Source: Anaeromyces robustus
Lineage: Eukaryota
Assembly (NCBI GenBank): GCA_002104895.1
Contig: MCFG01000170.1
Coordinates: 62,001 to 126,000, forward strand
DNA: 64,000 nucleotides
Reading direction: 5' to 3'
Below the pieces are notes generated by a model. That model made no database searches, was not told where the DNA came from, and saw only the letters and a list, made by a program, of their open reading frames with translations. Shown in pieces: positions 1-31,500 of this stretch (position 1 is its first letter; every line of letters begins with the position of its first letter). Made by a program: the position numbers and the translations under genes.

Positions 1-569
1 GACCCTTAGAGGTAATACGACGACCACTATTTCGTAAATAATTATTAATAAAAATACAAAAGTTTTCATTAATATTTCAAATTGTTATTATAAAAAATAA
101 ATAAAAATACAAAAACAATATCTTACCCGTTGTTGTCCTTTTCAAGAATTTCCATCTTTTCTAAACCTTGGACGATTTTTCTTAAAATGTTACCAGAGGC
201 ATCACAGTGGTGGGATGGACGAGTACCACGGTTGCAGGAGCTACCGTGCTTTCTACGGAGGGCACCAATACCAACATTTGGACGGAGGTAGATATGGCGA
301 GCAATAGAAGCTATTTATAATTTTTATAATTATTAACCATCTAACTACTATATAAAAAATAATAATAAATAAAACTAATATAAATTATTAAACATACCAG
401 CACGAATGTAGTACCAGTCTTGGTCGTATGGAGCAAGTTCCTTGAAAGTGGCGGTTTTAACAAGGTCAACCCATTTTGGGACATCTAATTTACCGGTTTT
501 TTTGAGGTAGGCAGCGTAGGCCTTAACGAAAACGTGTGGGTTTACGTCTTTGACAGTTGTTCCAGCCAT
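1..569 (-). CDS. RPS19: 40S ribosomal protein S19 (eS19), runs off the window's left edge; coding exons 569-398, 310-127, 26-<1
   Basis: Spliced translation [127 protein letters not shown] is classic eS19. The GT-AG introns keep frame. Confidence 0.97.
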
Positions 570-937
570 ATCTTAATTATTATTATATTATTTTATATAA
601 AATATTATTATTAATTACATGATATAGTGTAAAATAGTATTTAAAATAATTAAATTGTTTTAACATAGTAACATCTTATAGATTTATAAAATATATATAG
701 TATTGACTTTTAATTATTGATTAGGTTTATAATAACTAAATTAAATGAAAATGCCTTATATATTACTAAAAATATATCTTCATTTTATATATAATAAATA
801 AAATATCGGACCATTATATCATTTACTCATCAAACACAACATTAACAAACATTAATAAAAACCATAAACATTAACACATCCATCATTCAAATTCATTAAT
901 CATTAATAATTCATTCATTCATTCATTAATTCATTAC

Positions 938-2112: not shown

Positions 2113-3003
2113 TTATATTTTTGACTCTCTTTTACGACATTTAGATATGTAACAACATTTGCTATAAATGGAGAAATTTTTCTATTTCATTACTACTTAA
2201 ATATTTTTTTTTTTTTTTTTTTTTTTTTGAATCAGTTAAATAGAATTAAAAACATTTAATTAATAAATTTAATAAAAAAAACATTTTTCATTATTTACAA
2301 TTCTTTTAAATTTTTCATACATCTGGCAATGTTTTAATATAATTTCTATTCAGATCTCTTTTATATATAAAAAATATTAATCGTTTAAATAATTTTATTA
2401 TAATTAAATATTTTATAAAATTTATTATTTAATATATAATATTTACAAATATTCTAACTCAGTTAATCCATTAATAGAAAGAGGAATTACTTCTATTTTA
2501 TTATGTTTTAACTCTCTTTTTTATTATTATCATTATTATTTTAAAAAAAATTCTTGAATTAGTTATATGTGATTAAATATATATTTTTTAATTTAATAAT
2601 TTTAATAAAAAAAATTTTTTTTCATTTACTTAAAGAATTGCCAAATTATATAAATAAAAATTATTAATCTAAATAATAAAAAAAAATAAAAAGAAAAAAG
2701 AGGAAATTTTATTATTCAAATAATTTAATAATTATTACAATATTTCCATTGAATTTCCAATAGAAGATGGAATAATTTCAACTTTATGATAATCTTCAAC
2801 ACCATCTAAACATCTTTTATTATCATCAGCATTATTTCAAAATGAATTTTTTGAATTAGTCATATAATTAAAAATATTTCATTTATAAATTCAATATTAA
2901 TAAAAAAAATTAAAAATTAAAACATTTTTATTTACAATTCTTTTAAATTTTTTTTATTTTAAAAAGACCTCTGGTATTTCTTTAATATCATTTATTTGAT
3001 TTT
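2113..3003 (-). pseudogene. Decayed copy (A) of the LRR-TM gene family
   Basis: Remnants of exons 5, 6, 8, 9, 10 and the last codons (..CCYISKCRKRESKI*), plus the family 3' UTR. Exons 1-4, most of exon 7 and the stalk/TM part of exon 11 are missing. Exons 6 and 9 carry internal deletions. Confidence 0.85.
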
Positions 3004-4051
3004 TATAAAAAAAAAATTTTTTTTTTTTGTTTACCATTAAAAGTAAAAGAATAATTAAATAAATTTAATTGATTAAAAATTTTATTTTTAATAAAAATAA
3101 ACAAATTATTATAATTAAATTTTTTTAATTTATCCTATCACTATTTGTATATTTATTAACTTTAATTATTAAGTATTTAAAAGATTTCGGATTTTAATAA
3201 ATTGTATGCTTTAACGAAATTTCGAAAATTTTAATTAATACACATGTAATTAATATGTAATATATAATAAAGGATAAATTAATTAAATTTAATTATTAAA
3301 TAAATTCTTTGAAAAATATGAAAAATATAAAAAAAAAAAAATTAAAAAATTGATAAAAAAAAAAAAAAAAAAATAAAAGAATGAATGAATTAATGAATTA
3401 ATTAATTAATTAATAAATGAATAATAATAATAATATTAAATTATTTAAATTTTCTTTTTCATTTTATTTTCATTTTATTTATCTTTTATTTTTTTTTTTT
3501 TTTTTAAATAATAAATTTCAATTTTTAATTGATAAAAATTAAAATAGAAAATTAATTTTCTTGTTAAAGGAAAAGAAGTCTTGTCAATACAAGCTTTGTT
3601 TAGGAGAGGTTCACTTCAACATCGAAATTGTACGATAATTCAAGTTATGAGTGTAGTTTACCATATTGACTTGAGTGATTATCCCCTAAAGAGCTATATC
3701 TTTGAGAAGTGGAAAGAGTTACTAAATTATTAGTATAACTCTTAGTATCATATTATATAAAAAGGAAAATTAATTATCTAAATTTTATTATTATTATTAT
3801 TTTAAATATTTTAAATATTCTAAATTATATAAAAATATTATACCTTAATATATTTATTTATAATATGTTTTATTATTTGAATTAGATTACAAACAAATAT
3901 ATTTATTAATTCTATATTATAATAATCTAAGTTTTATATTAATAATAGTACAATATGCAATAATACTAATATTTAAATTCCTATTCATATGAAATATATA
4001 TCTGTTTGAATATTGGATTATTTTATTTTCTTTAATAATAAAAGGAAATAA

Positions 4052-5489
4052 TTATTTTCTTGGCTCTCTTGGCTCTTTTACAGAAATTTGTTTACATACG
4101 GAAAATATACCTGTCACTATTAATGCAAGAAAAACAACAAGAAAAAATATAACCACTGCCATTCCAATTATAAATTCTCTTAATCTTTTTTTTGGTGATA
4201 TGCTTTGTTCTTCTTCATTCTGTCTATTTTCTTCTTCAATTTCCCATTTATTTTGATAATTTACAGGTTTTTCTAACTTTTCTAAATCATTTATTGAATC
4301 AGGCAATTCTTTAATATAATTACCATATAAAGTTCTTTATATATATATATATATATATATATAATAATTATTAATAGCTAATATTAAATAGTTTTTTTTT
4401 TTTAATTACAGAAATATTAAAAATATCTGGTAATGAATTAATATAATTATACTTTACAATTTTTCTAATTCAGTTAAATTTGCGATAGATGGGGAAATTT
4501 CTTCTATTTTATTACTACTTAAATATCTTTTTTTTTTTTTTTTAGAAAAAAAAATAATTAATTAGGATTAAAAATATTTAATCAATAAATTTAATAAAAA
4601 AAAAACTTTTTTTTTCATTACTTACAATTCTTTTAAATTTTTCAATTGATATAGTTCATCTGGCAATGTTTTAATATTATTTCCACTCAGATTTCTTTTA
4701 TATATAAAATATTAAATATTATTTATTTAAATAATTTTTATAATTAAAAATTATATAAAATTTTACTATTTAATATATAATAATTACAAATATTCTAATT
4801 CAGTTGATTCCTTAATAGAAGGAGGAATTACTTCTATTTGATTATAGTTTAAATTTCTTTTTTATTATTATCATTATTTTAAGAAATAATTCATTGAATT
4901 AGTTACATATGATTAAATATACATTTTTAATTTAAAAATTTTAATAATTTTTTTTTTCATCTACTTACAAACGTTTTAATTTTTTCAATTGAAAAAGTTC
5001 ATTTGGCAATTCTTTAATTTCATTTTCACTTATATCTCTTTTATTATATAAATAAATAAAAATTATTAATTTATATAATTAAAAAATAAATAAATAATAA
5101 TAAAATATATATATATATTATTCAAATAATTTAATAATTATTACAATATTTCCAATTCAGATAAGTTTCCAATAGAAGATGGAATAATTTCTATTTTATG
5201 ATATATTTCAACACCTTCTAAACATCTTTTATTATCATCAGTATTATTTCAAAATGAATTTTTTTATTTTTGAATTAGTCATATAATTAAAAATATATTT
5301 AAAAATATTTTATTTATAAATTCAATAAAAAAAATAAACATTTTTATTTTTATTTACAATTCTTTTAATTTTTTCAATTTAAAAAGTTCTTCTGGTATTT
5401 CATTAAGATCGTTTACTTGATTTTGTCTTATAGTTCTTTTTTAATAAAAAATTTTTAATTTGAATATTTTTATATTTATATAATATTAA

Positions 5490-5523
<34 letters not shown>

Positions 5524-6445
5524 TATTATTCAAATAATATAATAATTATTACAATTTTTCTAATTCAGATAATTCTCCAATAACAGGTGGAATTTTAACA
5601 AATTCCAATCTATGTATTTTTCTTTTATATATATATATATATATAATAAATAAAAAATAAGAAAAAGAGTTTTCGAATTAGTTATAATAAAAATTTATTA
5701 TTCACAAAATTAATAAAAAAATATTTACAATTCTCTTAATTTTTTCAATTTAGCGAGTTCCTCAGGTAAATCTGTAACTGACATAAAATACATAGAACTT
5801 TATATATATATATATATATATATACATTAAATTTAAATTTTATTCAAATAAAAAAGAAAAAAAAAATACATAAAACAAAAATATTAAAAATAAATTATTA
5901 TTTAAATATTTATAATTGTTAGTATCTAATTACAGATATTCCAACTCAGATAATTCTCCAATAGAAGGAGGTATTTCTGTCATTTCTTCCATATTTAAAT
6001 GCCTATTTTATTATCATTGTTATTATTATTTTTATTTTTTTATAAGAAATTTTTTTGAAATTAGCCTTGGAATAAAATAAATTTTATTGTTTATAATAAT
6101 TTAAAACTTTATTATAATAATATTATATTATAATAATAACATTGTCACAATATTATATTATTGTATTTTATAATATTATATTATATTTATTATATTATAC
6201 TATATTGTACTGTATAAAAATATATACAATTCACGTATATGACCATCTTTAGTAATTGCAAAAGAAAAAGTCCCAGTATTATCACCACTATTTTCATGAC
6301 ATTCTTTATTATTTTTACCAATTATTGAATAAAAAATTTGACATTCTTCGTCAACACTTGTACTATTGTTAACATTGATAGAATTTACCAATGTTAAATT
6401 TAAAATAGAAATAATAATATTTAATAATAATATATTTAATTTCAT
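4052..6445 (-). CDS. LRR receptor-like protein copy B: signal peptide, Cys N-cap, 10 LRRs, acidic stalk, one TM, short tail; 380 aa; exons 6445-6228, 6002-5934, 5797-5729, 5621-5553, 5435-5358, 5225-5145, 5037-4969, 4856-4788, 4694-4626, 4526-4458, 4334-4052
   Basis: Manual splicing gives an open 1143-nt CDS. It starts MKLNILLLNIIISILNLTLVNS, has repeats such as L-NLSGNNIKTLPDELYQLKNLKEL and L-YLSSNKIEEISPSIANLTELEKL, and the TM FIIGMAVVIFFLVVFLALIVTGIFSV. All 10 introns are GT-AG and phase 2. Confidence 0.9.
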
Positions 6446-6993
6446 TTTTTTATTTTTTATTTTTTTTTTTATTTTAATATTTAATATTTTTATTTTTTGT
6501 TTTTTTTTTTGTTTTTTTGTTTTTTTTTTCAAAATTTTTATATTTAATATTCTTGTTTTTTTTTGTTTTTTTTTTCAAAATTTTAAAACTTTGCACTTTC
6601 TTTTTGTTTTTATATTGAAAAAAAAAAAAAAATTTTATTTTTTGTTTACTATTAAAAGTAAATGAATAGTTAAATAAATTTTAATATACATGCTTTTATT
6701 ATAAAATAATTTATTTTAATATATTTATTAATTTATTTTATTTTATAATTTAATTAATTAATATAGCTCTTTGCTACTCCTTTAATTATAATTATGTATA
6801 TTAATTAGATTTTTCGAATTTTTGTTAAAACAAATTTAATTATTAATTATTAAAAAGATTTCAAATTTTTAAAAATTAATTTTTTTATAAAAATATTTCT
6901 GAACCAAAAATAAATCAAAAATAAGAAAAAAAAGTAAAAAAAAAAAAAAAAAAATAAGATTAAATGAAAAAAAAAAAAGAATGAATGAATGAA

Positions 6994-7024
<31 letters not shown>

Positions 7025-7081
<57 letters not shown>

Positions 7082-7385
7082 GCAATAAAATAATGAAAAC
7101 TTTATTTAAATTTAATTTAAAAAGTACATGTTATAAAGTAATTGTACATATTAAAACTTAATCTAATAAAGAATAATAATTTATTATTTAATAGATAGTA
7201 ATAATTTATAATTACTTCATATGGTATAGTGTATATTATTAAATTAAATCAAGTTGGAAAGTTATTATCATTATTAGATGCGTGTGACCTACTGTCTTGT
7301 CCTACTGAATTGTCAGCTTCGACGCTCTTGGTTAGATTGTTGGGATACCTATTGAATAATGACCAGATCTGGCCACTAACAGTAG
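7025..7385 (-). mobile_element. 5'-truncated poly(A)-tailed retroposed insertion (3' end of a non-LTR element or an mRNA retrocopy)
   Basis: T56 at 7025-7080, about 170 nt of putative 3' UTR, then a GC-richer open frame ending STVSGQIWSLFNRYPNNLTKSVEADNSVGQDSRSHASNNDNNFPT* (TGA 7251-7249). It sits inside the (AAT)n tract, which is uninterrupted in the other spacers, with gaataataataat on both sides. Confidence 0.65.
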
Positions 7386-7398
7386 AATAATAATAATA

Positions 7399-7433
<35 letters not shown>

Positions 7434-7879
7434 TAAATTTTCATTTTCATTTTCATTTTCATTTTTTTTTATTTTTTTTTTTGAATAATGAATTTCAATT
7501 AATTAATTTTCTTGTTAAGGGTTAAGACATATACTTGTCAAAAAAAATAAACTTTGGAAATTTTATTGTTTTTTATTATTCTAAATTTTGGAAAATATTT
7601 TACTAAATTATATAAAAATATTATACATAAATAAAGATATAAAAGTATAATATTTTTATACCTTTATAATTTTATATATTTATCTATAATATGTTTTATT
7701 ATTTAATTAGATTACAACAAATATATTTATTTATTAATTCTATATTATAATAATCTAAGTTTTATATTAATAATAGTACAATATGTAATAATACTAATAT
7801 TTAAATTGCTATTTATATGAAATTTATATCTGTTTGAATATTGAATTATTTTATTTTTTTTAATAATAAAAGGAAATAA

Positions 7880-8676
7880 TTATATTCTTGGCTCTCTTAG
7901 CTCTCTTGGCTCTTTTGGCTCTTTTCTACAACAATGTTTACATAGGCAAAATATACATATCACTATTAATATAAGAATAACAACATGAAAAATTATATAC
8001 ATAGCTATTCCCATTGTAAGATTTCTTGAGTTTCTTTCATCTGCTATTCTTTGTTCTTCTTCATACCGTCTATTTTCTTCTTCAATTTCCCATTTATTTT
8101 GATAACGTACAGGTTTTTCCAACTTTTTTAAATCATTTATTGAATCAGGTAATTCTTTAATATAATTATCATATAAATTTCTTTTATATATATATATAAT
8201 AATTATTAATAACTAAATATTAATAGTTTTTTAAATTTCTTGTAATAAATTAATATAAGTATACTTTACAATTTTTCTAATTCAGTTAAATTTGCGATAG
8301 ATGGAGAAATTTTTTCTATTACATTACTACTTAAATATCTATTAAATTTATTTATTAAATATTTTTAATTCTAATTAACTAATTTTCTTTATTTTTTCTT
8401 AAAAAAAAAAAATCTTTTTTTCATTACTTACAATTCTTTTAAATTTTTCAATTGATATAATTCATCTGGCAATGTTTTAATTTTATTTCTACTCAGATCT
8501 CTTTATATATAAAATATATTAATAGTTTAAATAAATTTATTATAATTAAAAATTTTATAAAATTTATTGTTTAATATATAATATATATTTAATATATAAT
8601 ATTTACAAATATTCTAACTCAGTTGGTTCCTTAATAGAAGGAGGAATTACTTCTATTTGATTCCTGTGTAAATCTC

Positions 8677-8758
<82 letters not shown>

Positions 8759-9140
8759 CATTATTTTAAAAAAAAATTCATTGAATTAGTTATGATTAAA
8801 TATATATTTTTAATTTAAAAATTTTAATAATTTTTTTTTTTTCATCTATTTACAAATGTTTTAATTTTTTCAATTGAAAAAGTTCATTTGGCAATTCTTT
8901 AATTTCATTTCCACTTATATCTCTTTTATAATATAGATAAATAAAAATTATTAATTTTTATAATTAAAAAAAAAAATAAATAATAATAAATATATAAATA
9001 TATATTATTCAAATAATTTAATAATAATTACAATATTTCCAATTCAGATAAGTTTCCAATAGAAGATGGAATAATTTCTGCTTTATGATGATCTTCAACA
9101 CCTTCTAAACATCTTTTATTATCATCAGTATTATTTTAAA

Positions 9141-9176
<36 letters not shown>

Positions 9177-9392
9177 AATTAGCCATATAATTAAAAATAT
9201 ATTTAAAAATATTTTATTTATAAATTCAATATAAAAAAACATTTTTATTTTTATTTACAATTCTTTTAATTTTTTCAATTTAAAAAGTTCTTCTGGTATT
9301 TCATTAAGATCGTTTACTTGATTTTGTCTTATAGTTCTTTTTTATGAATTAAAAATTTTTTATTTAATATTTTTATATTTATATAATACTAA

Positions 9393-9429
<37 letters not shown>

Positions 9430-10387
9430 TATTATTCAAATATTATAATAAATATTACAATTTTTCTAATTCAGATAATTCTCCAATAACAGGTGGAATT
9501 TTAAAAAATTCTAATCTATGTATATATCTTTTTTTTTAATATATATATATATATATATATAATAAATAAAAAATAAGAAAAAGAGTTTTCGAATTAGTTA
9601 TAATAAAAATTTATTATTCACAAAATTAATAAAAAAATATTTACAATTCTTTTAATTTTTTCAATTTAGCGAGTTCAGCAGGTAAATCTGTAACTGACAT
9701 AAAATACATAGAACTTTATATATATATATATATACATTAAATTTAAATTTTATTACAAAAAAAAAAGAAAAAAAAAATACACAAAACAGAAATATTAAAA
9801 AAAAATTATTATTTAAATATTTATAATTGTTAGTATCTAATTACAGATATTCCAACTCAGATAATTCTCCAATAGAAGGAGGTATTTCTGTCATTTTTTC
9901 CATATTTAAATGCCTATTTTATTATTATTGTTATCATTATTTTTATTTTTTTATATAAGAAATTTTTTTGATTTTATATAAGAAATTTTTTTGAAATTAG
10001 CTTAAGAATAAAATAAATTTTATTGTTTATAATAATTTAAAACTTTATTATAATAATATTATTATATAATAATAACATTGTCACAATATTATATTATATT
10101 ATTGTATTTTATAATACTATATTATATTTATTATATTATACTATATTGTACTGTATAAAAATATATTACAATTCACGTATATGACCATCTTTAGTAATTG
10201 CAAAAGAAAAAGTCCCAGTATTATCACCACTATTTTCATGACATTCTTTATTATTTTTACCAATTATTGAATAAAAAATTTGACATTCTTCGTCAACACT
10301 TGTACTATTGTTAACATTGATTGAATTAACCAATGTTAAATTTAAAATAGAAATAATAATATTTAATAATAATATATTTAATTTCAT
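7880..10387 (-). CDS. LRR receptor-like protein copy C (11 exons, 10 LRRs, TM, Cys-rich juxtamembrane tail)
   Basis: Same exon series as copy B, with ATG at 10387. Last exon ends ...LTMGIAMYIIFHVVILILIVICIFCLCKHCCRKEPKEPRELREPRI*. Confidence 0.88.
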
Positions 10388-10897
10388 TTTTTTATTTTTT
10401 ATTTTTTTTTTTATTTTAATATTTAATATTTTTGCTTTTTGTTTTTTGTTTTTTGTTTTTTTTTTTTTTTTCAAAATTTTTATATTTAATATTCTTGTTT
10501 TTTTTTGTTTTTTTTTTTAAAATTTTAAAACTTTGCACTTTCTTTTTGTTTTTATATTGAAAAAAAAATTTTATTTTTTGTTTACTATTAAAAGTAAATG
10601 AATAGTTAAATAAATTTTAATATACATGCTTTTATTATAAAATAATTTATTTTAATATATTTATTAATTTATTTTATTTTATAATTAAATTAATTAATAT
10701 AGCTCTTTGCTACTCCTTTAATTATAATTGTGTATATTAATTAGATTTTTCGAATTTTCGTTAAAACAAATTTAATTATTAATTATTAAAAAGATTTTAA
10801 ATTTTTAAAAAAAATTAATTCTTTATAAAAATATTTCTGAACCAAAAATAAGGAAAAAAAGTTTAAAAAAAAAAATAAGATTAAAAGAAAAAAAGAA

Positions 10898-10969
<72 letters not shown>

Positions 10970-11398
10970 TACTATTTAAATTTTCATTTTCATTTTCATT
11001 TTTTTTTTATTCTTTTTTTTTTTAAAAAAATAATAAATTTCAATTAATTAATTTTCTTGTTAAGGATTAAGACATATACTTGTCAAAAAATTAAATTTTG
11101 GAAAATTTTATTACTTTTTATTATTCTAAATTATATAAAAATATTATACATAAAGATATTAAGGTATAAAAACATTATACCTTTATAACTTTATATATTT
11201 TTCTATAATATGTTTTATTATTTAATTAGATTACAACAAATATATTTATTTATTAATTCTATATTATAATAATCTAAGTTTTATATTAATAATAGTACAA
11301 TATGTAATAATACTAATATTTAAATTGCTATTTATATGAAATTTATATCTGTTTGAATATTGAATTATTTTATTTTTTTTAATAATAAAAGGAAATAA

Positions 11399-12600
11399 TT
11401 ATATTCTTGGCTCTCTTAGCTCTCTTGGCTCTTTTGGCTCTTTTCTACAACAATGTTTACATAGGCAAAATATACATATCACTATTAATATAAGAATAAC
11501 AACATGAAAAATTATATACATAGCTATTCCCATTGTAAGATTTCTTGAGTTTCTTTCATCTGCTATTCTTTGTTCTTCTTCATACCGTCTATTTTCTTCT
11601 TCAATTTCCCATTTATTTTGATAACGTACAGGTTTTTCTAACTTTTTTAAATCATTTATTGAATCAGGCAATTCTTTAATATAATTATCATATAAATTTC
11701 TTTTATATATATATATAATAATTATTAATAAATAAATATTAATAGTTTTTTAAATTACTTGTAATAAATTAATATAATTATACTTTACAATTTTTCTAAT
11801 TCAGTTAAATTTGCGATAGATGGAGAAATTCTTTCTATTTCATTACTAGTTAAATCTCTATTAAATTTTTTTATTAAATATTTTTAATCCTAATTAATTA
11901 ATTTTTTTTTTTTTCTCTTAAAAAAAACTTTTTTTTTTTTCATTACTTACAATTCTTTTAAATTTTTTAATTGATATAGTTCATCTGGCAATGTTTTAAT
12001 ATTATTTCCACTCAGTTCTCTTTTATATGTAAAATATAAAATATTAATAGTTTAAATAAATTTATTATAATTAAAAATTTTATAAAATTTTACTATTTAA
12101 TATATAATATTTACAAATATTCTAACTCAGTTGATTCCTTAATAGAAGGAGGAATTACTTTTATTTGATTACTGTTTAAATTTCTTTTTTATTATTATCA
12201 TTATTTTAAAAAAAAATTCATTGAATTAGTTATGATTAAATATATATTTTTAATTTAAAAATTTTAATAATTTTTTTTTTTCATCTATTTACAAATGTTT
12301 TAATTTTTTCAATTGAAAAAGTTCATTTGGCAATTCTTTAATTTCATTTCCACTTATATCTCTTTTATAATATAGATAAATAAAAATTATTAATTTATAT
12401 AATTAAAAAAAAAATAATAAATAATAATAAATATATATATATATATATACTATTCAAATAATTTAATAATTATTACAATATTTCCAATTCAGATAAGTTT
12501 ACAATAGAAGATGGAATAATTTCTGCTTTATGATGATCTTCAACACCTTCTAAACATCTTTTATTATCATCAGTATTATATCAAAATGAATTATTATTAT

Positions 12601-12631
<31 letters not shown>

Positions 12632-12848
12632 GAATTAGCCATATAATTAAAAATATATTTAAAAATATTTTATTTATAAATTCAATATAAAAAAACATTT
12701 TTATTTTTATTTACAATTCTTTTAATTTTTTCAATTTAAAAAGTTCTTCTGGTATTTCATTAAGATCGTTTACTTGATTTTGTCTTATAGTTCTTTTTTA
12801 TGAATTAAAAATTTTTTATTTAATATTTTTATATTTATATAATACTAA

Positions 12849-12885
<37 letters not shown>

Positions 12886-13825
12886 TATTATTCAAATATT
12901 ATAATAATTATTACAATTTTTCTAATTCAGATAATTCTCCAATAACAGGTGGAATTTTAAAAAATTCCAATCTATGTATATTTCTTTTTTTTAAAATATA
13001 TATATATATATAATAAATAAAAAATAAGAAAAAGAGTTTTCGAATTAGTTATAATAAAAATTTATTATTCACAAAATTAATAAAAAAATATTTACAATTC
13101 TTTTAATTTTTTCAATTTAGCGAGTTCAGCAGGTAAATCTGTAACTGACATAAAATACATAGAACTTTATATATATATATATATATATACATTAAATTTA
13201 AATTTTATTACAAAAAAAAAAGAAAAAAAAAATACACAAAACAGAAATATTAAAAAAAAAATTATTATTTAAATATTTATAATTGTTAGTATCTAATTAC
13301 AGATATTCCAACTCAGATAATTCTCCAATAGAAGGAGGTATTTCTGTCATTTCTTCCATATTTAAATGCCTATTTTATTATCATTGTTATCATTATTTTT
13401 ATTTTTTTATATAAGAAATTTTTTTGAAATTAGCTTAAGAATAAAATAAATTTTATTGTTTATAATAATTTAAAACTTTATTATAATAATATTATAATAT
13501 AGTAATAACATTGTCACAATATTATATTATATTATATTATTGTATTTTATAATACTATATTAAATTTATTATATTATACTATATTGTATTGTATAAAAAT
13601 ATATTACAATTCACGTATATGACCATCTTTAGTAATTGCAAAAGAAAAAGTCCCAGTATTATCACCACTATTTTCATGACATTCTTTATTATTTTTACCA
13701 ATTATTGAATAAAAAATTTGACATTCTTCGTCAACACTTGTACTATTGTTAACATTGATAGTATTAACCAATGTTAAATTGAAAATAGAAATAATAATAT
13801 TTAATAATAATATATTTAATTTCAT
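11399..13825 (-). CDS. LRR receptor-like protein copy D (11 exons)
   Basis: Same exon series. The last-exon protein is identical to copy C, while exons 8-10 differ (NLNSN, ELSGN, DLTSN). Confidence 0.88.
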
Positions 13826-14772
13826 TTTTTTTTTATTTTTATATTTAATATTTTTGTTTTTTGTTTTTTTTGTTTTTTTTTTTTTTTTTTTATTTTAATA
13901 TTTAATATTTTTGTTTTTTGTTTTTTGTTTTTTGTTTGTTTTTTTTTTTTCAAAATTTTAAAACTTTGCACTTTCTTTTTGTTTTTATATTGAAAAAAAA
14001 ATTTTTATTTTTTGTTTACTATTAAAAGTAAATGAATAGTTAAATAAATTTTAATATACATACTTTTATTATAAAATAATTTATTTTGATATATTTATAA
14101 TATATTTTATTTTATAATTTAATTAATTAATATAGCTCTTTGCTACTCCTTTAATTATAATTGTGTATATTAATTAGATTTTTCGAATTTTCGTTAATAC
14201 AAATTTAATTATTAATTATTAAAAAGATTTTAAATTTTTAAAAAATTTATTTTTTATAAAAATATATCTGAATCAAAAATAAGGAAAAAAAGTAAAAAAA
14301 AAAATTAGATTAAGGAAAGAAAAAAAGAATGAATGAATGAATGAATGAATAATAATAATATTATTATTATTACTATTATTTAAATTTTCCATTTTCTACT
14401 TTTTTTTATTCCTTTTTTTTTAAAAAAATAATGAATTTCAATTAATTAATGAAAATTGAAATAGAAAATTAATTTTCTTGTTAAGAGTAAAAAATAAATT
14501 TTGGAAAATTTTATTATTGTTTATTATTCTTAATTATATAAAAATATTATACCTTTATATCTTTATATATTTATCAATAATATGTTTTATGATTTTAATT
14601 AGATTAAAAACAAATATATTTATTAATTTTTTTTTATTATAATAATCTAAATTTTTATATTAATAGTAGTACAATATGTAATAATACTAATATTTAAATT
14701 GCTATTCATATGAAATATTTATCTGTTTGAATATTGAATTATTTTATTTTCTTTAATTATAAAAGAAAATAA

Positions 14773-16207
14773 TTATACTCTTGGCTCTCTTTTACAACAA
14801 CAATGTTTACATAGGCAAAATATACATATCACTGTTAATATAAGAATAGCAACAGCAATAGTTATCACTATAACTATTGCAGTTACAAGATCTTTTGCTC
14901 TTTTTTCATCTGCTGCTCTTTGTTCTTCATCATACCGTCTATGTTCTTCTTCAATTTCCCATTTATTTTGATAATTTACAGGTTTTTCTAACTTTTCTAA
15001 ATCATTTATTGAATCAGGCAATTCTGTAATATAATTATCATATAAAGTTCTTTATATATATATATATATAATAATTATTATTAATAGCTAATATTAAATA
15101 GTTTTTTTTTTTTAATTACAAAATTATTAAAAATAACTTTTAATAAATTAATATAAGTATACTTTACAATTTTTCTAATTCAGTTAAATTTGCGATAGAT
15201 GGAGAAATTTCTTCTAATTCATTACTACTTAAATATCTTTTTTTTTTTTTTTTAAGAAAAAAAAAATATTTAATTAGGATTAAAAATATTTAATCAATAA
15301 ATTTAATAAAAAATAAAACTTTTTTTTTTCATTACTTACAATTCTTTTAAACTTTTCAATTGATATAGTTCATCTGGCAATATTTTAATATTATTTCTAC
15401 CCAGATTTCTTTTATATATAAAAAATATAAAATAATAGTTTAAATAAATTTATTATAATTAAATATTTTATAAAATTTACTATTTAATATATAATATTTA
15501 CAAATATTCTAACACAGTTGATTCCTTAATATAAGGAGGAATTACTTCTATTTGATTACTGCCTAAATCTCTTTTTTATTATTATCATTATTATTTTAAA
15601 AAGAATTTCTCGAATTAGTTATATGTGATTAAATATATATTTTTAATTTAATAATTTTAATAATTTTTTTTTTCTTTTTTCATTTACTTACAAATGTTTT
15701 AATTTTTTCAATTGAAAAAGTTCATTTGGCAATTCTTTAATTTCATTTTCACTTATATCTCTTTTATTATATAAATAAATAAAAATTATTGATTTATATA
15801 ATTAAAAAAAAATAAATAATAATAAAAATATATATATTATTCAAATAATTTAATAATTATTACAATATTTCCAATTCAGATAAGTTTATAATAGAAGATG
15901 GAATAATTTCTATTTTATGATGATTTTCAACACCTTCTAAACATCTTTTATTATCATCAGTATTATTTCAAAATGAATTTTTTTTTTGAATTAGTCATAT
16001 AATTAAAAATATATTTAAAAATGTTTTATTTATAAATTCAATAAAAAAAATAAACATTTTTATTTTTATTTACAATTCTTTTAATTTTTTCAATTTAAAA
16101 AGTTCTTCTGGTATTTCCTTAATATCGTTTACTTGATTTTGTCTTATAGTTCTTTTATATGAATAAAAAATTTTTTATTTAATATTTTTATATTTATATA
16201 ATACTAA

Positions 16208-18562: not shown

Positions 18563-20617
18563 TTATACTCTTGACTCTGTTATACAACAATGTTTATATA
18601 GGCAACATAGACACGTCACTATTAATATTACAAGAATAACAACAGGAATAGTTATCAATATAACTATTGAAGTTACAATATCTTTTGATCTTTTTTCATC
18701 TGCTTTTCTTTTTTCTTCATCATATCGTCTATATTCTTCTTCAATTTCCCATTTATTTTGATAATTTACAGGTTTTTCTAACTTTTCTAAATCATTTATT
18801 GAATCGGGCAATTCTGTAATATAATTATCATATAAATTTCTTTTATATATATAATAATTATTAATAGCTAATATTAAATACTTTTTTTTAATTTACAAAA
18901 TTATTAAAAATATCTTGTAATAAATTAATAAGTATACTTTACAATTTCTCTAATTCAGTTAAATTTGCGATAGACGGAGAAATTTCTTCTATTTCATTAC
19001 TACTTAAATATCTTTTTTTTTTTTTTTTTTAAGAAAAAAAAATATTTAATTAGGATTAAATATATTTAATCAATAAATTTAATAAAAAAAAAAAAACTTT
19101 TTTTTTTTATTACTTACAATTCTTTTAAATTTTTCAATTGATATAGTTCATCTGGCAATGTTTTAATATTATTTCTACCCAGATCTTTTATTATATAGAT
19201 AAATCAAAATTATTAATTTATATAATTAAAAAAAAAATAAATAATAATAAAAATATATATATTATTCAAATAATTTAATAATTATTACAATATTTCCAAT
19301 TCAGATAAGTTTACAATAGAAGATGGAATAATTTCTGCTTTATGATGATTTTCAACACCATCTAAACATCTTTTATTATCATCAGTATTATTTCAAAATG
19401 AATTTTTTTTTTTTTTTTTTTTTGAATTAGTCATATAATTAAAAATATATTTAAAAATATTTTATTTATAAATTCAATAAAAAAATAAACATTTATATTT
19501 ACAATTCTTTTAATTTTTTCAATTTAAAAAGTTCTTCTGGTATTTCATTAAGATCGTTTACTTGATTTTGTCTTATAGTTCTTTTATATGAATAAAAATT
19601 TTTTTAATTTGAATATTTTATATTTATGTAATATTAAAATAATAATAATAATAATAATAAAATATTATTCAAATATTATAATAACTATTACAATTTTTCT
19701 AATTCAGATAATTCTCCAATAACAGGTGGAATTTTAAAAAATTCCAATCTATGTATATATCTTTTTTTTTAAAAAAAAAAAAATAATAAAATAAAATATA
19801 TATATATATAATAAATAAATAAAAAATAAGAAAAAGAGTTTTCGAATTAGTTATAATAAAAATTTATTATTTACAAAACTAATAAAAAAATATTTACAAT
19901 TCTTTTAATTTTTTCAATTTAGCGAGTTCAACAGGTAAATCTGTAACTGACATAAAATACATAGAACTTTATATGTATATATATATATATATTAAATTTA
20001 AATTTTATTACAAAGAAGAAAGAAAGAAAAAAATACACAAAACAAAAATATTTAAAAAATTATTTAAATATTTATAATCGTTAGTATCTAATTACAGATA
20101 TTCCAACTCAGATAATTCTCCAATAGAAGGAGGTATTTCTGTCATTTTTTCCATATTTAAATGCCTATTTTATTATCATTGTTATTATTATTTTTATTTT
20201 TTTATATAAGAAATTTTTTTGAAATTAGCTTTGAAATAAATAAATTTTATTGTTTATAATAATTTAAAACTTTATTATAATAATACTATATTATAATAAT
20301 AGCATTGTCATAATATTATTTTATATTATTATAATATATCATACTATATTATATATATTATACTATATTTGTATTGTATTGTATTGTATAAAAATATATT
20401 ACAATTCACGTATATGATCATCTTTAGTAATTGCAAAAGAAAAAGACCCAGTATTACTAAAACTATTTTCATGACATTTTCCATTATTTTTACCAATTAT
20501 TGAATAAAAAATTTGACATTCTTCGTCAACACTTGTACTATTGTTAACATTGATAGAATTAACCAATGTTAAATTGAAGATAGAAATAATAATATTTAAT
20601 AATAAATTTAATTTCAT
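18563..20617 (-). CDS. LRR receptor-like protein copy F: lacks LRR exons 7 and 8 and has a damaged exon-9 acceptor (shortened protein or incipient pseudogene)
   Basis: Exon 6 (about 19369-19289) is followed directly by an exon-9-type exon of only 67 nt (19184-19118). The remaining exons appear intact, ending ...IVTCLCCLYKHCCITESRV*. Confidence 0.7.
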
Positions 20618-24707: not shown

Positions 24708-25977
24708 ACTTTTTTTTATATCATATATTTTATTATATTTTATTATATATATATAACTTTTGTATATAAAAACACCTTTGAAAAAGTTTAATGTTTAAAT
24801 AATATATAATATATATAACATTAATATCCTATCATTCATTTTTTTTTTTTTGCGTAATCACAAATTCATTTTAATAATTCACAAATTAATTCATGAAAAT
24901 CTAAAACATATAAATATCATTACATTTTTTTTATGAATACTAATTAAAAAAAAAACTCAATATATATATAATAATAATAATAAAAATAAAAAAAGTATTG
25001 TATTGTATAATATAATTTTAAAAAATTAAAAAAATTTTTGGTATAACTTCAAAGGTAACTTATTATTATTAATATTCATATATATAATATAATATATAAG
25101 TTAAAATAATATGAAAATATTAAAAATTATCTGCATTATATTTATATATATAATATATATGTTAAAATAACATAAAAATATTAAAATTATCTACATTATA
25201 TTTATATAAAACTTTATATATAGAAATTTTGTTATTATTGTCTGAAAATAAATTCAGTCAATATTTTTTATATTTAGCCTGAATATATAAGTAATATATA
25301 ATATATAATAATATAATATTTTAATAAAAAGAGAAAAAAAAAAAAAAAAGAGAATTTTTTTTATTCTTTGTTTTTATTATAATATTAACTCATTAATTTA
25401 TATATATATATATTGATATAGATTGGAAGAAAAAGAAAAAAAATATAAGAGAAAAGAATTTTGAATTTCTAATAAAATAATACATTTTTTAATTAAAAAA
25501 TATTTAGAAATTAAATTATAATTATCTGATATATTAATTAGTATATCTAGATACCCTTATACATTAAAAATACTCAATATAATAATTAATTTATTATGTC
25601 TTTTATATTTCAACAAAAATTAAAAAGGAAAAAAAAATTATCAAGTTAAAAAACTTATTAAGAAAAAGATATTACGAAATAATTTCTTAACTATATCTTA
25701 TAAATATTATTAACTTTTTTTTATTATTGATATTTATTAAATTTTAAAAATAATAAATTTAAAAAAAAAGTATTTTTGTATAAAAATTATATAAAGTTAA
25801 CTAAGAAAAATAATAAGTTTAACTTAATAAAAAAAAATATAGGAAAAAAAAATAGGAAAAAAAAAATAGGAAAAAAATATTATAAATAGTTTGTTTTTTA
25901 CATTTATAAAAAAAATCGTAATCGTAATTTTTGTTTAAAGAAAATAAAATAAAAAAAATTAATTATTAAAATTTAAT

Positions 25978-28503
25978 ATGATTAAAAGTTTAGCTTACAA
26001 CCAAAACCAAGATATCTATTCCAAAAGTTGGGATAGTAATAAAATACCAAACTGCCTTAATAAAAATAATAATAGTAGTTTTGATTTAAAAAATTATGAT
26101 GAAATTACTAATATGAAAACTAATCAAACTTCATTATACAGAAATAATACTTATCATGGAAATGAAAAGAAATCTAATCAAGAAAGTTTTAAGAAAAAAG
26201 AAAAGTATCACAAAAGTTTTGATTTTAAAAGTATGTTAAAAAAGAAAAATGGTTCAACAAATATTTCATCTTCCGTTTCAGTTAATCCTTTTACAGATAA
26301 TACACAAATGAATAATAATAAATTAAATCAAAACCAATTAAAATCAAATGAATTATTGTATTCTGATATTCAAAATGATGAAAAAAATAATAAGAATAAT
26401 AAAAATAAACAAAAATCAGAATTCAAAATGAAAACTCATCTTTTAAAATCTTTAATGGAAAATGTTGAAGATGAAACAGAAGATACTTATTGTGATAATG
26501 AAAGTGAAAAAAGTTTTATTGATAATTTATCTATGTGTAAATCAAATTATAATGGTATTATTACTCAATCATTAAATAAACCAACCATTTCTGAAATTGA
26601 TGTTACACCTGCTATTTCAATTATTAAAACTAAATCGGAAATGAATGACTTAAAGCAAGATCTCGAGTATTATAAATCTCTTTCCAAAAAAGATGATAAA
26701 AAGAATAATAATGGAAAATCTATTTCTAAAAACTCAAGTGGAAAAAGTAAATTTTTTGGAAAAAAATTCTTTAGTCGTTTCAAAAATTTTAGTTGGTTTG
26801 ATTCTCAAAAACATAATGGAAAAAATAATCACACTAATACGAATAATAACAATAATAATAATACTAGAAATCCTAGTAGTTTATCTCAATCAACTACCAT
26901 AAATTATGAAGATAATGGTATTATTAATTCTTCAGAAAGTAGTAATAGTAATAGTAGTAATAGTAACTTAAATAAGGATCAAATTGATAATGAAAAAAGT
27001 GAAATAACTTTAATTTCATCGCAACAACAACTTAATTTTGAATTTACTGGTTTAAATAATGATATATCAATTTCAAAAGAAAGTAATATTTCTAAAACTT
27101 TTATTAATAATTCCCATGATGTAATATTCGAAGAACCTATTAAAAACAATAATGAAAATGAAAAAAATAAAAAAATATTAGATAATAATATATTATTAGA
27201 TGATTCTAAAAATTGTGTTTCATTAAATGATGAAAATGCATATGGAACTGGAAATGGAAATGAAAATGAAAATGAAAATGGAAATGGAAATGGAAATGGA
27301 AATGATTATGATAATAATAAACTACTTGATAATGACAATAATAAAAATTATGAAAATAATAAAATAATTAAAATTGAAAAGAATATACTAAATGATAATA
27401 ATCAAGTAATGGAAAGTAATAGTAAGGAAAATACACTAATTGAAAATAATTCTGATAATTCATCTTTATTTTCTGGTTCCACTTTATTTCTTGATAATCT
27501 TCTCTTTACAGATTTATCACTTAAAATGAAAAATAATGAAACTGATAATCATCAAAATGAAATTGAAGATATTTATAAAATCGAAAAATTTGATGAAACA
27601 CAAATTTTAAGTACAAGTAGTCCAAAAATTAAAAATGAAAGTGAAGAATCAAATAATAATATGGAAGAAGAAGAAGAATTAAGTATAAAACATGATAATG
27701 AAAAAAATCTTGAAAAGATTTCCATTAAAAATGAAAAGGAAAATGATAGTAATAATAATAATATAATTAATAATGAAAAAATTATTAATCGTATTGAATC
27801 TTCATCGGATATAGTACTTCTCGAATATGAAACGGAAAGTGAAGTTGATATTTCTCATAAAATGAATCATTATGATTCTGAAATTGAAGTCGAAATTATA
27901 TCTATTTCATCACCAAAATCTGACATTGAAAATGATAATGAAAATGAAAATGAAAATGAAAATGAAAATGAAAATGAAAATGAAAATAATGATAATTACA
28001 AAAATACTGAAGATGAATTTTCATCATTATCATCAAATAATGAAGAAATTACACCAACAATAACAACAACATCAACAATAACAACAACACCAATAATATC
28101 TAATAATGAAAATGAATTTAAAAATATTGAAAGAAATTCTTTATATCATCAATCTTTTGATATTCAAAGAAATATTTTTATAAATAATTTTGATAATAAT
28201 AATAATAATGATGATGATATTAATAGTAATGATAAAGAATATTTAAATTATATGAATCATTCAATTATCACACAAATTAATGAAAAGGAATTAAATGAAA
28301 AAGAATCAAAATCTTTCCCAGTTAATCTAAATAATGATGATAATTTAATTGAAAATAATATAATATATTTAAATCAATCAGAATTATCATCAAATGATGA
28401 TATAAATATATTGAATATGAATAAAAGCAATAATTTACATCTTAATCTAGATTCAACTTCATTTAATAATCCTGTTTTATTAAATAATAATAATACTTGT
28501 AAC

Positions 28504-28546
<43 letters not shown>

Positions 28547-31500
28547 TAAATACTAAATTTAATAAATCAGAAATTATACCACATTCAATTAACACCACAA
28601 TCTTATCATCAGAAAATGATAAAAATTTTGAACAAAATACATTAAATACATTAAATACACTAAATTCAAATATAGACAATTTTACACTTACTTTATCAAG
28701 TAAAACATATAATACTACATCAACAAATAAAGAACCTCATACATTATCATCTATAAATAATATTGATGATAAAACTGATTTGATATCAGAATTATCATCA
28801 AACATAATTAATGATGACTATAAAAATAGTTCTTCTTTACAACATGAATTAAACAACGCATCAACATTATCTATTGATTATAATAATAATGATTATAACA
28901 ATAATAATAATAATAATTTAAAAACGGATAATTCATTAAATTTAAATATTTTTGACGCTATTATTAACGTAAATTCAAATTCATATAATAATAATAATAA
29001 TAATAATGATATTTCGCATAAAATCATAGATGAATCATCAATAATAAATGATAATAAAAACAATAATAATAATAATAATAATAACAATGATAACATCAAT
29101 AATGATAAAGATTCAATATTAAAGTATTTAAATACTTATACTATCACCAATGATAATATTAATATGGATATTTTATCAGAATCGAAATCAATTGATGAAG
29201 AAATAAGAAAAGAAAAGAAAGATGATGAAACTAATATTGTTATATTAGATAATAATTTAGAATTTCCTATTAATATAAATGAAAGTGATGATGAATATAC
29301 TGAAATTGAAAAACATGAATCTGAAGATGATGATGATGACGACGATGATGATGAAATAATTCTTAAAGTAGAAGAAATAACTTACAATGAAAATGAAAAT
29401 AATGTAAATGATGATAAATCATTACAAAATAATAAATATGAAACTAAAGTTAATGATGAAGAAGAAACCCTTAAAGATGAAATGAATGAAAAGGAAAATA
29501 GTATTAATTCAAATGAATTAGAAATTAAATCTTCTAAAGAATTTGAAACTAATGAAAAGGAAACTAATATTAATTCAAATGAATTAGAAATTAAATCTTC
29601 TAAAGAATTTGAAACTAATGAAAAGGAAACTAATATTAATTCAAATGAATTGGAGATTAAATCTTCTAAAGAATCTGAATCTGAAAATATTCCAATGGTA
29701 AATGAAGAAGGTATAAGAAGAAGAAAATATCAAAATCAATTAAAATCTGTTTTAAAACGTCGTAACCGTCATTCTTTTCCTCAATGTGGTACAAATATAT
29801 TTGAATTATCACCACTTACACATATTCCATTAAGTCAAATTGGTGATAATGAAAATAAAATTAATATTCCAGGTGTTGAAACTATTGTAGTACGTCAAAG
29901 AAGAAAATCTGTCAATTTTGATAGAAATGCTTTTGAAAAAGTATGTTACTTTACTTCAACAGAAAAACCAGAAGATATTCATTCTCGTGATGTTCAAATT
30001 AAAGAAGATGAACAATCATCCAATTCAATTCAAACTTTATTGAATACTGAAGTACAAAAATTATTATCGGATGAAGTCACGGGAAAGGGAGAATATTGTA
30101 ATTTAGGAAAAATTAATAATAATAATAATAATTGTGGTAATAGTAATAATAGTAGTAGTAGTAATAGTAGTAATGATAATGATAATAATAATATTATTAT
30201 TAACAATTCTAATTTAAATAATAATTTAAATGAAAATGTAAATGTAAATGTAAATGAAATAAATAATACTACTACTATATTATCTTCTTCAAATATTACT
30301 TCAGAACCTGAATCATTTGTAAATTTAGATATTGCTTCAGAATGTCAAGGAGAAATACCAATTTCATCTTTAAGTTCTTTAACATCATTACAATCTATTT
30401 CAGATTCAATATCAATATTAAAAGATTCATCAACATCTTCATCTAATACATTATCAATTACTATCAAAGCAGAAATTGAACAACAAATAAAAAATAAATG
30501 TCTTTTAAATGATTCTTCACTTAAACTTAATGATCCATCTTCTTCATGGTCTCCTATTCCAAGAAATGTAATTCATTTACCAAAAATGAAACATAAAGCA
30601 AAAGATTGGGAACCTCATATTCTTATTGAAAGTTTTGAATTAGCACCAAGATTTGAAGGACAAACACAAGATATGTGGGATGTATTACAAGTTAAATTAA
30701 AAGTTCAAAATTTAGATTATCATAAAAAGGTATTTATTCGTTATACTACTAATGATTGGGCAAGTTACAAAGAAGAAGAAGCAAAATATAGTTGTTGTAT
30801 ACGTGAAGGTACTCAAGGCTATTCTTATAATAATTATGGAGAACAAAAAAAGGTTGGACTTGATCGTTTTATAGCTAGAATTGATGCTTCCGATTTATTT
30901 GTATTACCAGAATGTGGAAGACATACTTGTATGCAACGTCCTAGTACAATGTTACTTGTAGCAAGATATGAAGTTCTTGGTAATACTTATTGGGATAATA
31001 ATCATTTTACAGATTATAAATTAGAATTAGTTAGAATTCCAGCAGGTTATGATGTACCACGTCATCATGGACATTCTAAATATGGAGATGCATCAGTTAT
31101 TGCATGTGCTGCATGTGCTGAAGAAAAACTTGAAGCTGAATTAGCAAATGCTAAAAAATTACTTAAAGAAAATGAAAAAGAGAAAAAGGAAAGAACAAAA
31201 GTACGTCATCTCGGTGGTGGTCAAGCTTTACTTCATGATAACTTTTCAGAAATGCAATCTAATGTTAAAAATGAAGATTTTTCAGTAGACCCAAATAATA
31301 TTTATGTTAAAGAAGTTATGAAACATAATGAAATTATAAAACATGAAATGACAGAATATCCTAATACTAATAGTAATAGTAATGCTAATGCTAATACTAA
31401 TGCTAATACTACTTCCTCATCTTCAACTAATTCAACTACAAATTCAATTTCAACTATTGCTACCACTAAAGCCATTGAAAATGAAAAACCAACTTTAACA

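What the first reader, a model, noticed from the sequence alone, without database searches (positions are those of the whole stretch)
4458..15571. Amino-acid differences are enriched at exposed xLxxN positions of LRR exons 8-10
Seen: exon 8 reads NLNYN (B), DLHRN (C), NLNSN (D), DLGSN (E), ELKHN (A). Exon 9 reads NLSGNN, DLSRNK, ELSGNN, NLGRNN, DLNRNY. Exon 10 reads YLSSNK, YLSSNV, DLTSNE, YLSSNE (B-E). Exon 4 starts K/Y/N/K/Y (B-F), and the exon 6 loop is EIYH/EDHH/ENHH. The helical halves and exons 2, 3 and 5 change much less. Known: these x positions form the concave ligand-binding face and are the positively selected sites in plant R/RLP proteins and lamprey VLRs. Inference: diversifying selection on ligand specificity.
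Basis: partly seen in the sequence, partly recalled or inferred. Interest (0 to 1): 0.7.

Follow-up and report, generated by a model that had tools for sequence, protein, structure and literature searches.

The report
Fast-evolving surface LRR receptors, gut fungus
A gut fungus carries a tandem cluster of membrane-anchored leucine-rich-repeat proteins whose predicted binding face changes faster than neutral DNA, the pattern of plant immune receptors, in a kingdom where such surface receptors are thought to be rare; what they bind is unknown.

Summary
The region is a minus-strand tandem cluster in an AT-rich fungus, most likely Neocallimastigomycota. It holds four intact genes (B-E), one copy with a deletion and frameshift (F) and one pseudogene (A). 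Each encodes a signal peptide, a Cys-pair cap, ten LRRs (one per phase-2 exon), a charged stalk, one transmembrane helix and a short tail.

In exons 8-10, 10 of 12 concave-face x codons vary (16 nonsynonymous, 0 synonymous changes), against 6 of 30 other exposed codons. The enrichment survives correction for picking three exons.

Omega at these sites is 3.4-5.4 on one tree and 2.6 with per-exon trees (p=0.008). In the window alone, omega>1 is only moderate under the strictest null (corrected p=0.02-0.09; all exons p=0.15). An independent pair of related transcripts, tested at pre-set positions in all eight repeats, gives omega about 3.7, p about 0.003.

Diversifying selection on a binding surface is likely. 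Ligand, immune role and expression of these copies are untested. The proteins work like plant Cf-type receptor-like proteins but fail that family's motif tests.

The parts
4052..6445 (-). Gene B, intact, 11 exons, 380 aa; tail has lost most cysteines
   Evidence: GT-AG phase-2 introns, one open frame
7880..10387 (-). Gene C, intact, 11 exons, 386 aa
11399..13825 (-). Gene D, intact, 11 exons, 386 aa
14773..17182 (-). Gene E, intact, 11 exons, 377 aa
18563..20617 (-). Gene F: exons 7-8 deleted (intron 6 joined to exon 9 at a shared AAAGAGAT-like start). Exon 9 is 67 nt, 2 short, so out of frame unless skipped or spliced at an in-frame AG giving 57 nt (19174)
2113..3010 (-). Pseudogene A: no exons 1-4, damaged exon 5, exon 7 reduced to an inverted 17-nt remnant, 59-nt exon 9, exon 10 without acceptor and fused to the end of exon 11 (ends approximate)
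4788..4856 (-). B exon 8 (LRR7); variable codons lie in the first 19 nt
4626..4694 (-). B exon 9 (LRR8)
4458..4526 (-). B exon 10 (LRR9)
8607..8675 (-). C exon 8
8432..8500 (-). C exon 9
8270..8338 (-). C exon 10
12115..12183 (-). D exon 8
11951..12019 (-). D exon 9
11789..11857 (-). D exon 10
15502..15570 (-). E exon 8
15340..15408 (-). E exon 9
15168..15236 (-). E exon 10
8339..8431 (-). C intron 9, middle inverted relative to B/E/F
   Evidence: reverse-complement score 92-101 vs forward 48-56
11858..11950 (-). D intron 9, same inversion
   Evidence: 84-93 vs 46-51

Best explanation
These are single-pass cell-surface LRR binding proteins of an anaerobic gut fungus, expanded by tandem duplication. 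SHOWN: (1) the architecture; (2) one repeat per symmetric phase-2 exon, so repeats can be lost or gained in frame, and F did lose exons 7-8; (3) birth and death of copies; (4) an excess of amino-acid change at x1, x3, x4 and x6 of LRR7-9 over synonymous sites and introns. INFERRED: the concave beta-sheet binds a variable extracellular partner and selection favours copies with different specificities; the 13-18-residue tail cannot signal alone, so the protein works with a co-receptor or as a capture/adhesion molecule. Most likely partner: a fast-changing non-self molecule from gut microbes, viruses or other fungi (about 0.5 given selection).
For: Architecture: N-terminal and C-terminal hydrophobic peaks, Cys35/49, short tail; Pfam LRR_8/LRR_14 in relatives; LRR solenoid fold. 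Omega at focal sites of exons 8-10: 3.4-5.4 on one tree, p<=5e-5; 5.0 with double-nucleotide mutations allowed, 6.5 without F; 2.6 with per-exon trees, p=0.008. Site models without prior positions: M1a/M2a, M7/M8 and M8a/M8 LRT 27-28. Youngest pair C/D: 9 of 36 focal nt differ vs 18 of 244 in introns 8-10, p=0.003. No synonymous change in 10.9 synonymous sites of the same 7-codon stretches, where 5.7 are expected from a regional hotspot. No donor exon in the window explains the variants. Independent pair L005/L006, positions fixed beforehand, all 8 repeats: 13 of 32 focal vs 8 of 70 other exposed residues differ (p=0.001); omega 3.6-3.8, p=0.002-0.004. Spliced relatives with the same layout exist (L004, L006, L007).
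Against: Strictest null (per-exon trees, neutral focal sites): 16 observed vs 8.3+/-2.6, p=0.004 raw, 0.02 for contiguous choice, 0.09 for any-three choice. All ten exons together: 23 vs 18.7, p=0.15; tied omega 1.5, p=0.17. Focal omega in the unpicked exons is 0.9-1.4. E vs F differ at 0 of 21 focal nt. The C/D block from exon 8 to intron 10 has deeper ancestry than the 5' part (18 of 244 vs 8 of 676 intron differences), which inflates single-tree omega. 3 of the 7 top sites are off the concave strand. Only 12 synonymous changes in the window's LRR exons and about 10 in the outside pair calibrate dS. No ligand, localisation or expression data for these copies.
Confidence: 0.72

Rival explanations
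1. Relaxed constraint plus mosaic ancestry. The x positions are free to drift, and exons 8-10 look hot because gene conversion left this block less homogenised or imported it from more distant paralogues outside the window.
For: Local tree length roughly doubles in exons 8-11. C/D intron divergence rises about six-fold in introns 8-10. 28% of informative-site pairs are incompatible. The all-exon test is not significant under per-exon trees.
Against: Focal sites still exceed the local introns two- to three-fold. An imported tract would carry synonymous changes too, yet there are none in the 10.9 sites tested. The independent pair gives omega>1 at pre-set positions. The neighbour-incompatibility permutation test was not significant (p=0.12-0.40).
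Confidence: 0.17
2. A mutational hotspot at exon 5' ends, next to poly-A, (AAT)n and inverted intron DNA, or multi-nucleotide mutations, mimics selection.
For: The focal codons lie within 19 nt of acceptors preceded by simple repeats. Intron 9 has undergone an inversion. Allowing double hits improves the fit.
Against: The interleaved L and N codons and all synonymous sites in the same stretch are unchanged. Omega stays 5.0 with double hits modelled. No inverted repeat longer than 8 nt covers the variant codons.
Confidence: 0.04
3. Selection is real but the protein is a target rather than a sensor: a virus, parasite or host antibody binds it and the fungus changes residues to escape.
For: The protein is surface-exposed with no signalling domain. 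Some high-posterior sites are on the convex side or in the stalk.
Against: Other exposed positions have omega 0.4-0.9 in the window and in the outside pair. Antibody escape should hit the convex side at least as much (inference).
Confidence: 0.07

Closest known systems
Plant LRR receptor-like proteins (tomato Cf-9/Cf-4, Cf-2/Cf-5 clusters)
   Same: Signal peptide, Cys N-cap, extracellular LRRs, one TM helix, short tail without kinase; tandem clusters; hypervariable solvent-exposed positions (title of a cited paper seen in PMC4030839's reference list; cluster behaviour recalled).
   Different: 23-residue repeats without the SGxIP segment; no island with Yx8KG; about 10 repeats instead of 20-30 or more; one intron per repeat; fungal host. 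The best fold matches are not plant RLPs.
Ectocarpus ROCO and LRR-kinase LRR exons (Zambounis et al., PMC3341825, passages read)
   Same: One LRR per exon, repeat-number change by recombination, pseudogenes, positive selection at concave-face sites.
   Different: There the exons are 72 nt and feed GTPase or kinase domains, with spare exons in introns. Here exons are 69 nt, exon order is collinear in all copies, there is no signalling domain, and only one inverted 17-nt exon remnant was found (in pseudogene A).
23-residue LRR solenoids: Leptospira interrogans LRR proteins, SHOC2, LRRC8
   Same: Closest folds to a model of relative P0008 (4u06, E=3e-9, TM 0.58); same repeat length and LPxxIxxLxxL segment.
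   Different: Fold resemblance only (about 30% identity); different architecture, no evidence of orthology.
Chytrid LRR receptors and LRR-RLK-like orthogroups (PMC2939053, PMC13618815; passages read)
   Same: LRR plus TM proteins in early-diverging fungi.
   Different: The 2010 survey found only five such genes in four of 49 fungi. The 2026 paper reports high-copy LRR-RLK orthogroups shared among chytrids. The passages I saw give no selection test and do not describe this kinase-less family.
Lamprey variable lymphocyte receptors (recalled)
   Same: Variable concave face built from LRR cassettes.
   Different: VLRs are assembled somatically and GPI-anchored; nothing here indicates somatic assembly.

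Membership tests
LRR receptor as defined by Soanes and Talbot (PMC2939053) | At least one LRR domain | tested here: met
   10 repeats in B-E; Pfam LRR_8 above cutoff in relatives L004 and P0008
LRR receptor as defined by Soanes and Talbot (PMC2939053) | A single TM helix apart from the signal peptide | tested here: met
   One Kyte-Doolittle peak of 3.4 near the C-terminus in B-E; hydropathy only, no TMHMM or SignalP
Plant LRR-RLP (Cf-type) | Signal peptide + LRR ectodomain + TM + short tail without kinase | tested here: met
Plant LRR-RLP (Cf-type) | Plant-specific repeat with SGxIPxxLxxLxx (PMC4030839) | tested here: not met
   Repeats are 23 aa and read xIxxIPxxIxxLxxL without the Gly
Plant LRR-RLP (Cf-type) | Non-LRR island, often with Yx8KG, before the last four repeats (PMC4030839) | tested here: not met
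   Repeat lengths 23,23,23,26,27,23,23,23,23,23; no island
Plant LRR-RLP (Cf-type) | GxxxG TM motif for a kinase adaptor (recalled) | tested here: not met
   Absent from the TM segments of B-E by inspection
Plant LRR-RLP (Cf-type) | Ligand-triggered immune signalling through a partner kinase | not testable with these tools
   Needs experiments
Toll-like receptor / LRR receptor kinase | Cytoplasmic TIR or kinase domain | tested here: not met
   Stop codon 13-18 residues after the TM; no Pfam family above cutoff in exon 11
Ectocarpus-type shuffled LRR exons | One repeat per same-phase exon | tested here: met
   All introns phase 2; exons 69/78/81 nt; intron 1 at the same place and phase in L001
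Ectocarpus-type shuffled LRR exons | Reordered exons and spare intact exons in introns | tested here: not met
   Order collinear in A-F; the six-frame motif scan found no extra LRR exons; only a deletion in F and a remnant in A
Ectocarpus-type shuffled LRR exons | Alternative splicing of repeats | not tested
   No reads could be laid on the genes

The most novel reading that the evidence does not exclude
Anaerobic gut fungi have independently evolved a family of cell-surface pattern-recognition receptors, the fungal counterpart of plant Cf-type receptor-like proteins. Repeat number is varied by exon-cassette gain and loss (perhaps also by exon skipping), the binding face is diversified in an arms race with gut bacteria, viruses or rival fungi, and signals pass through an unknown partner kinase.
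Probability: 0.3. Interest if true: 0.8.

Novelty: new variant of a known kind. Interest (0 to 1): 0.55.

Why it matters
Reviews state that fungi do not seem to have extracellular LRR pattern-recognition receptors (PMC9119436, citing PMC2939053; passages read). Here is an intron-rich family of LRR-plus-TM proteins in an early-diverging fungal lineage, transcribed in relatives, with the evolutionary signature of immune receptors. Positive selection on a concave LRR face is itself textbook; the host lineage is the surprise. Near-identical copies C and D differ at 12 residues in LRR7-9, which gives a ready-made pair for asking what an anaerobic gut fungus recognises at its surface.

Tried and rejected
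No whole genome is held, so other paralogue clusters and outside conversion donors could not be searched.

Word-indexed protein searches were nearly blank: exon 1, 0 of 68 candidates; P0008 cap region, 1 of 63, itself; L004 stalk, 0 of 43. Family size is therefore unknown.

Run search: 20 of 24 listed runs hold part of genes C-D, 10 of them on record as RNA with word shares 0.23-0.29. No reads or contigs could be laid, so this is not counted as evidence of expression, splicing or allelic variation.

The first L005/L006 analysis mis-registered two repeats (omega 2.8, p=0.017); one search is the corrected version. Intron 1 (poor alignment) and the C/D rows of intron 9 (inversion) were left out of the neutral references; copy A was left out of all rate tests. 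The PHI-like recombination permutation was not significant. Conversion from non-orthologous exons and hairpin template switching were looked for and not found. P0011 and P0015 were treated as chance hits (P0015 not inspected). L002 and L003 look like chimeric contigs and were not used for rates. The automatic repeat counter merged some repeats in L004 and P0008; those counts are by eye.

Site models are my own MG94 implementation (naive empirical Bayes), not PAML or HyPhy. Earlier-findings look-ups returned nothing.

Literature: eight searches found no description of this family. Subscription papers and bioRxiv supplements were not searchable, and I read no supplements (the gene tables of PMC2939053 and PMC13618815 could bear on novelty), so absence from print is not established.
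Full report
HOST AND LOCUS. The window is 8-24% GC in 2-kb bins, intron-rich and eukaryotic; no genome is held. A full HMMER search with exon 1 gave 14 hits. Of the 10 looked up, two carry names, Pecoramyces ruminantium and Piromyces sp. E2, so the host is most likely an anaerobic gut fungus (Neocallimastigomycota). This is inferred from relatives and base composition; no marker gene was placed on a tree. Neighbours are housekeeping genes: RPS19, a UAA transporter, phosphoglucomutase, a WD40 protein and NPL4.

GENE MODELS. Six copies lie head to tail on the minus strand. B (6445-4052), C (10387-7880), D (13825-11399) and E (17182-14773) each have 11 exons, GT-AG phase-2 introns and one open frame of 377-386 aa. 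Exon 1 encodes a signal peptide and a cap with two cysteines. Exons 2-10 each encode one LRR (69 nt; 78 and 81 nt for exons 5 and 6). Exon 11 encodes the tenth LRR, an E/R-rich stalk, one TM helix and a 13-18-residue tail, Cys-rich in C, D and E. F lacks exons 7-8, and its exon 9 is two bases short. A is a decayed pseudogene. The models rest on conservation between copies and on relatives: L004-L007 are spliced, and L001 retains intron 1 at the same place and phase.

OBSERVATION. I defined focal positions as x1, x3, x4 and x6 of L-x-L-x-x-N-x-I. In an AlphaFold model of relative P0008 (single sequence, pLDDT 71) the strands cover x1 to x3 or x4, and the fold matches 23-residue LRR solenoids. 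In exons 8-10, 10 of 12 focal codons vary (16 N, 0 S), against 6 of 30 other exposed and 2 of 24 core codons. The enrichment holds after correcting for the choice of three exons (p=0.0009-0.006) and over all ten exons (p=0.002), but not in the seven unpicked exons alone (p=0.29).

IS IT FASTER THAN NEUTRAL? Focal nucleotides change at 16 of 36, introns 7, 8 and 10 at 38 of 251, and all usable introns at 87 of 768 (p=1e-4). Fixed-class codon models on one tree give omega 3.4 (introns as reference) to 5.4 (synonymous only), with core about 0.3 and other exposed sites 0.5-0.75. Models without prior positions reject neutrality (LRT 27-28; about 12% of sites at omega 7). Of the 7 sites with posterior above 0.95, three are focal, one is in the exon-6 loop and three lie elsewhere. 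Allowing double-nucleotide mutations or dropping F does not remove the signal (omega 5.0 and 6.5).

MOSAIC ANCESTRY WEAKENS IT. C and D differ at 8 of 676 intron sites in introns 2-7 but at 18 of 244 in introns 8-10, so the variable block has older ancestry. With its own tree for each exon plus flanking introns, omega falls to 2.6 (p=0.008), and all focal sites tied give 1.5 (p=0.17). Simulation under that null gives 16 observed vs 8.3+/-2.6 (p=0.004; 0.02 or 0.09 after correcting for exon choice; all exons p=0.15). E and F do not differ at any of 21 focal nucleotides. The window alone therefore gives moderate evidence for omega>1. The divergent block itself could reflect selection resisting homogenisation or a chance conversion boundary; I cannot tell which.

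ARTEFACTS. A regional hotspot is unlikely: the interleaved L and N codons are fixed, and 10.9 synonymous sites in the same stretches show no change where 5.7 are expected. No other exon in the window is a closer donor than the orthologous exon, and no inverted repeat above 8 nt covers the sites. Donors elsewhere in the genome could not be checked.

INDEPENDENT TEST. A metagenome-contig scan confirmed 7 of 223 pattern matches. L005 and L006 are close relatives. With the same positions fixed beforehand and all 8 alignable repeats used, 13 of 32 focal vs 8 of 70 other exposed residues differ (p=0.001). Omega is 3.6-3.8 (p=0.002-0.004) under two frequency models, with or without double hits; the loop insertions are faster still (7 of 9 differ). 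Caveats: one pair, about 10 synonymous differences, assembled contigs, and L005 ends abnormally.

MECHANISM. Shown: architecture, same-phase cassette exons, loss of two repeats in F, repeat numbers from about 5 to 11 among relatives (by eye), birth and death of copies, and excess change on the strand face. Inferred: the concave face binds a variable extracellular partner, and the short tail needs a co-receptor or serves only as an anchor (palmitoylation of its cysteines is a guess). LRR3 keeps an Arg at x4 in B-F, L001, L004, L005, L006 and P0008, while later repeats vary freely; this suggests a constant N-terminal surface and a variable C-terminal one. I put diversifying selection on a binding face at 0.72, and a non-self, immune-type ligand at about half of that.

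COMPARISON WITH KNOWN SYSTEMS. The proteins work like Cf-type plant receptor-like proteins but fail the family's motif tests (no SGxIP and no island, by the definitions in PMC4030839, passages). The exon design and selection pattern parallel Ectocarpus LRR exons (PMC3341825, passages), but without reordering or a signalling domain. Soanes and Talbot found five LRR-plus-TM genes in four of 49 fungi (PMC2939053, passages). A 2022 review says fungi do not seem to harbour extracellular LRR PRRs (PMC9119436, passages). A 2026 paper reports high-copy LRR-RLK orthogroups in chytrids (PMC13618815, passages). One table lists a Pecoramyces gene annotated 'LRR receptor-like' among the top down-regulated genes in a monoculture/co-culture study; its relation to this family is unknown (PMC6414434, one passage). 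PMC10197012 (passages) had nothing on surface LRRs. Eight searches found no description of this family; no supplements were read. Remarks on VLRs, GxxxG and Cf cluster behaviour are recalled.

VERDICT. It is a new variant of a known kind: a familiar evolutionary signature in an unexpected lineage. Interest 0.55.

Noticed in passing
window 8339-8431 and 11858-11950: The middle of intron 9 is inverted in C and D relative to B, E and F, between poly-T and poly-A arms; the acceptor context differs as a result.
   Followed up: yes
window 2634-2650: In pseudogene A, exon 7 survives only as a 17-nt exact piece in inverted orientation, a second micro-inversion in the cluster.
   Followed up: yes
window 19118-19215: F joins intron 6 directly to exon 9 at homologous exon starts, removing two repeats; one AG of an AGAG is missing (natural slip or assembly error). 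An in-frame downstream acceptor exists.
   Followed up: partly
window 4052-4334: B has a diverged TM and tail (one Cys instead of five or six), while C and D exon 11 differ by only two synonymous changes. The TM region differs strongly among B, C/D and E/F.
   Followed up: partly
window 5729-6002 and paralogues: Repeats alternate between an IPPSIGELSEL type and an LPxELxKLKKL type, suggesting growth by two-repeat units; F lost exactly one such unit.
   Followed up: partly
window 3550-3740: A short, more GC-rich insert between A and B that is absent from the other intergenic spacers; possibly a mobile-element remnant.
   Followed up: no
window 25963-31653: A 1,896-codon intronless low-complexity ORF with a weak starch-binding CBM53 match near its C-terminus (E=0.009, below cutoff); looks like a glycogen-targeting phosphatase subunit (recalled).
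   Followed up: partly
L002 and L003: Both contigs start with a family member and continue into unrelated sequence (in L002 a chitinase-like frame by recalled motif); probably assembly chimeras.
   Followed up: no
window 1-570: 5' part of a ribosomal protein S19e gene on the minus strand, directly downstream of the cluster.
   Followed up: yes
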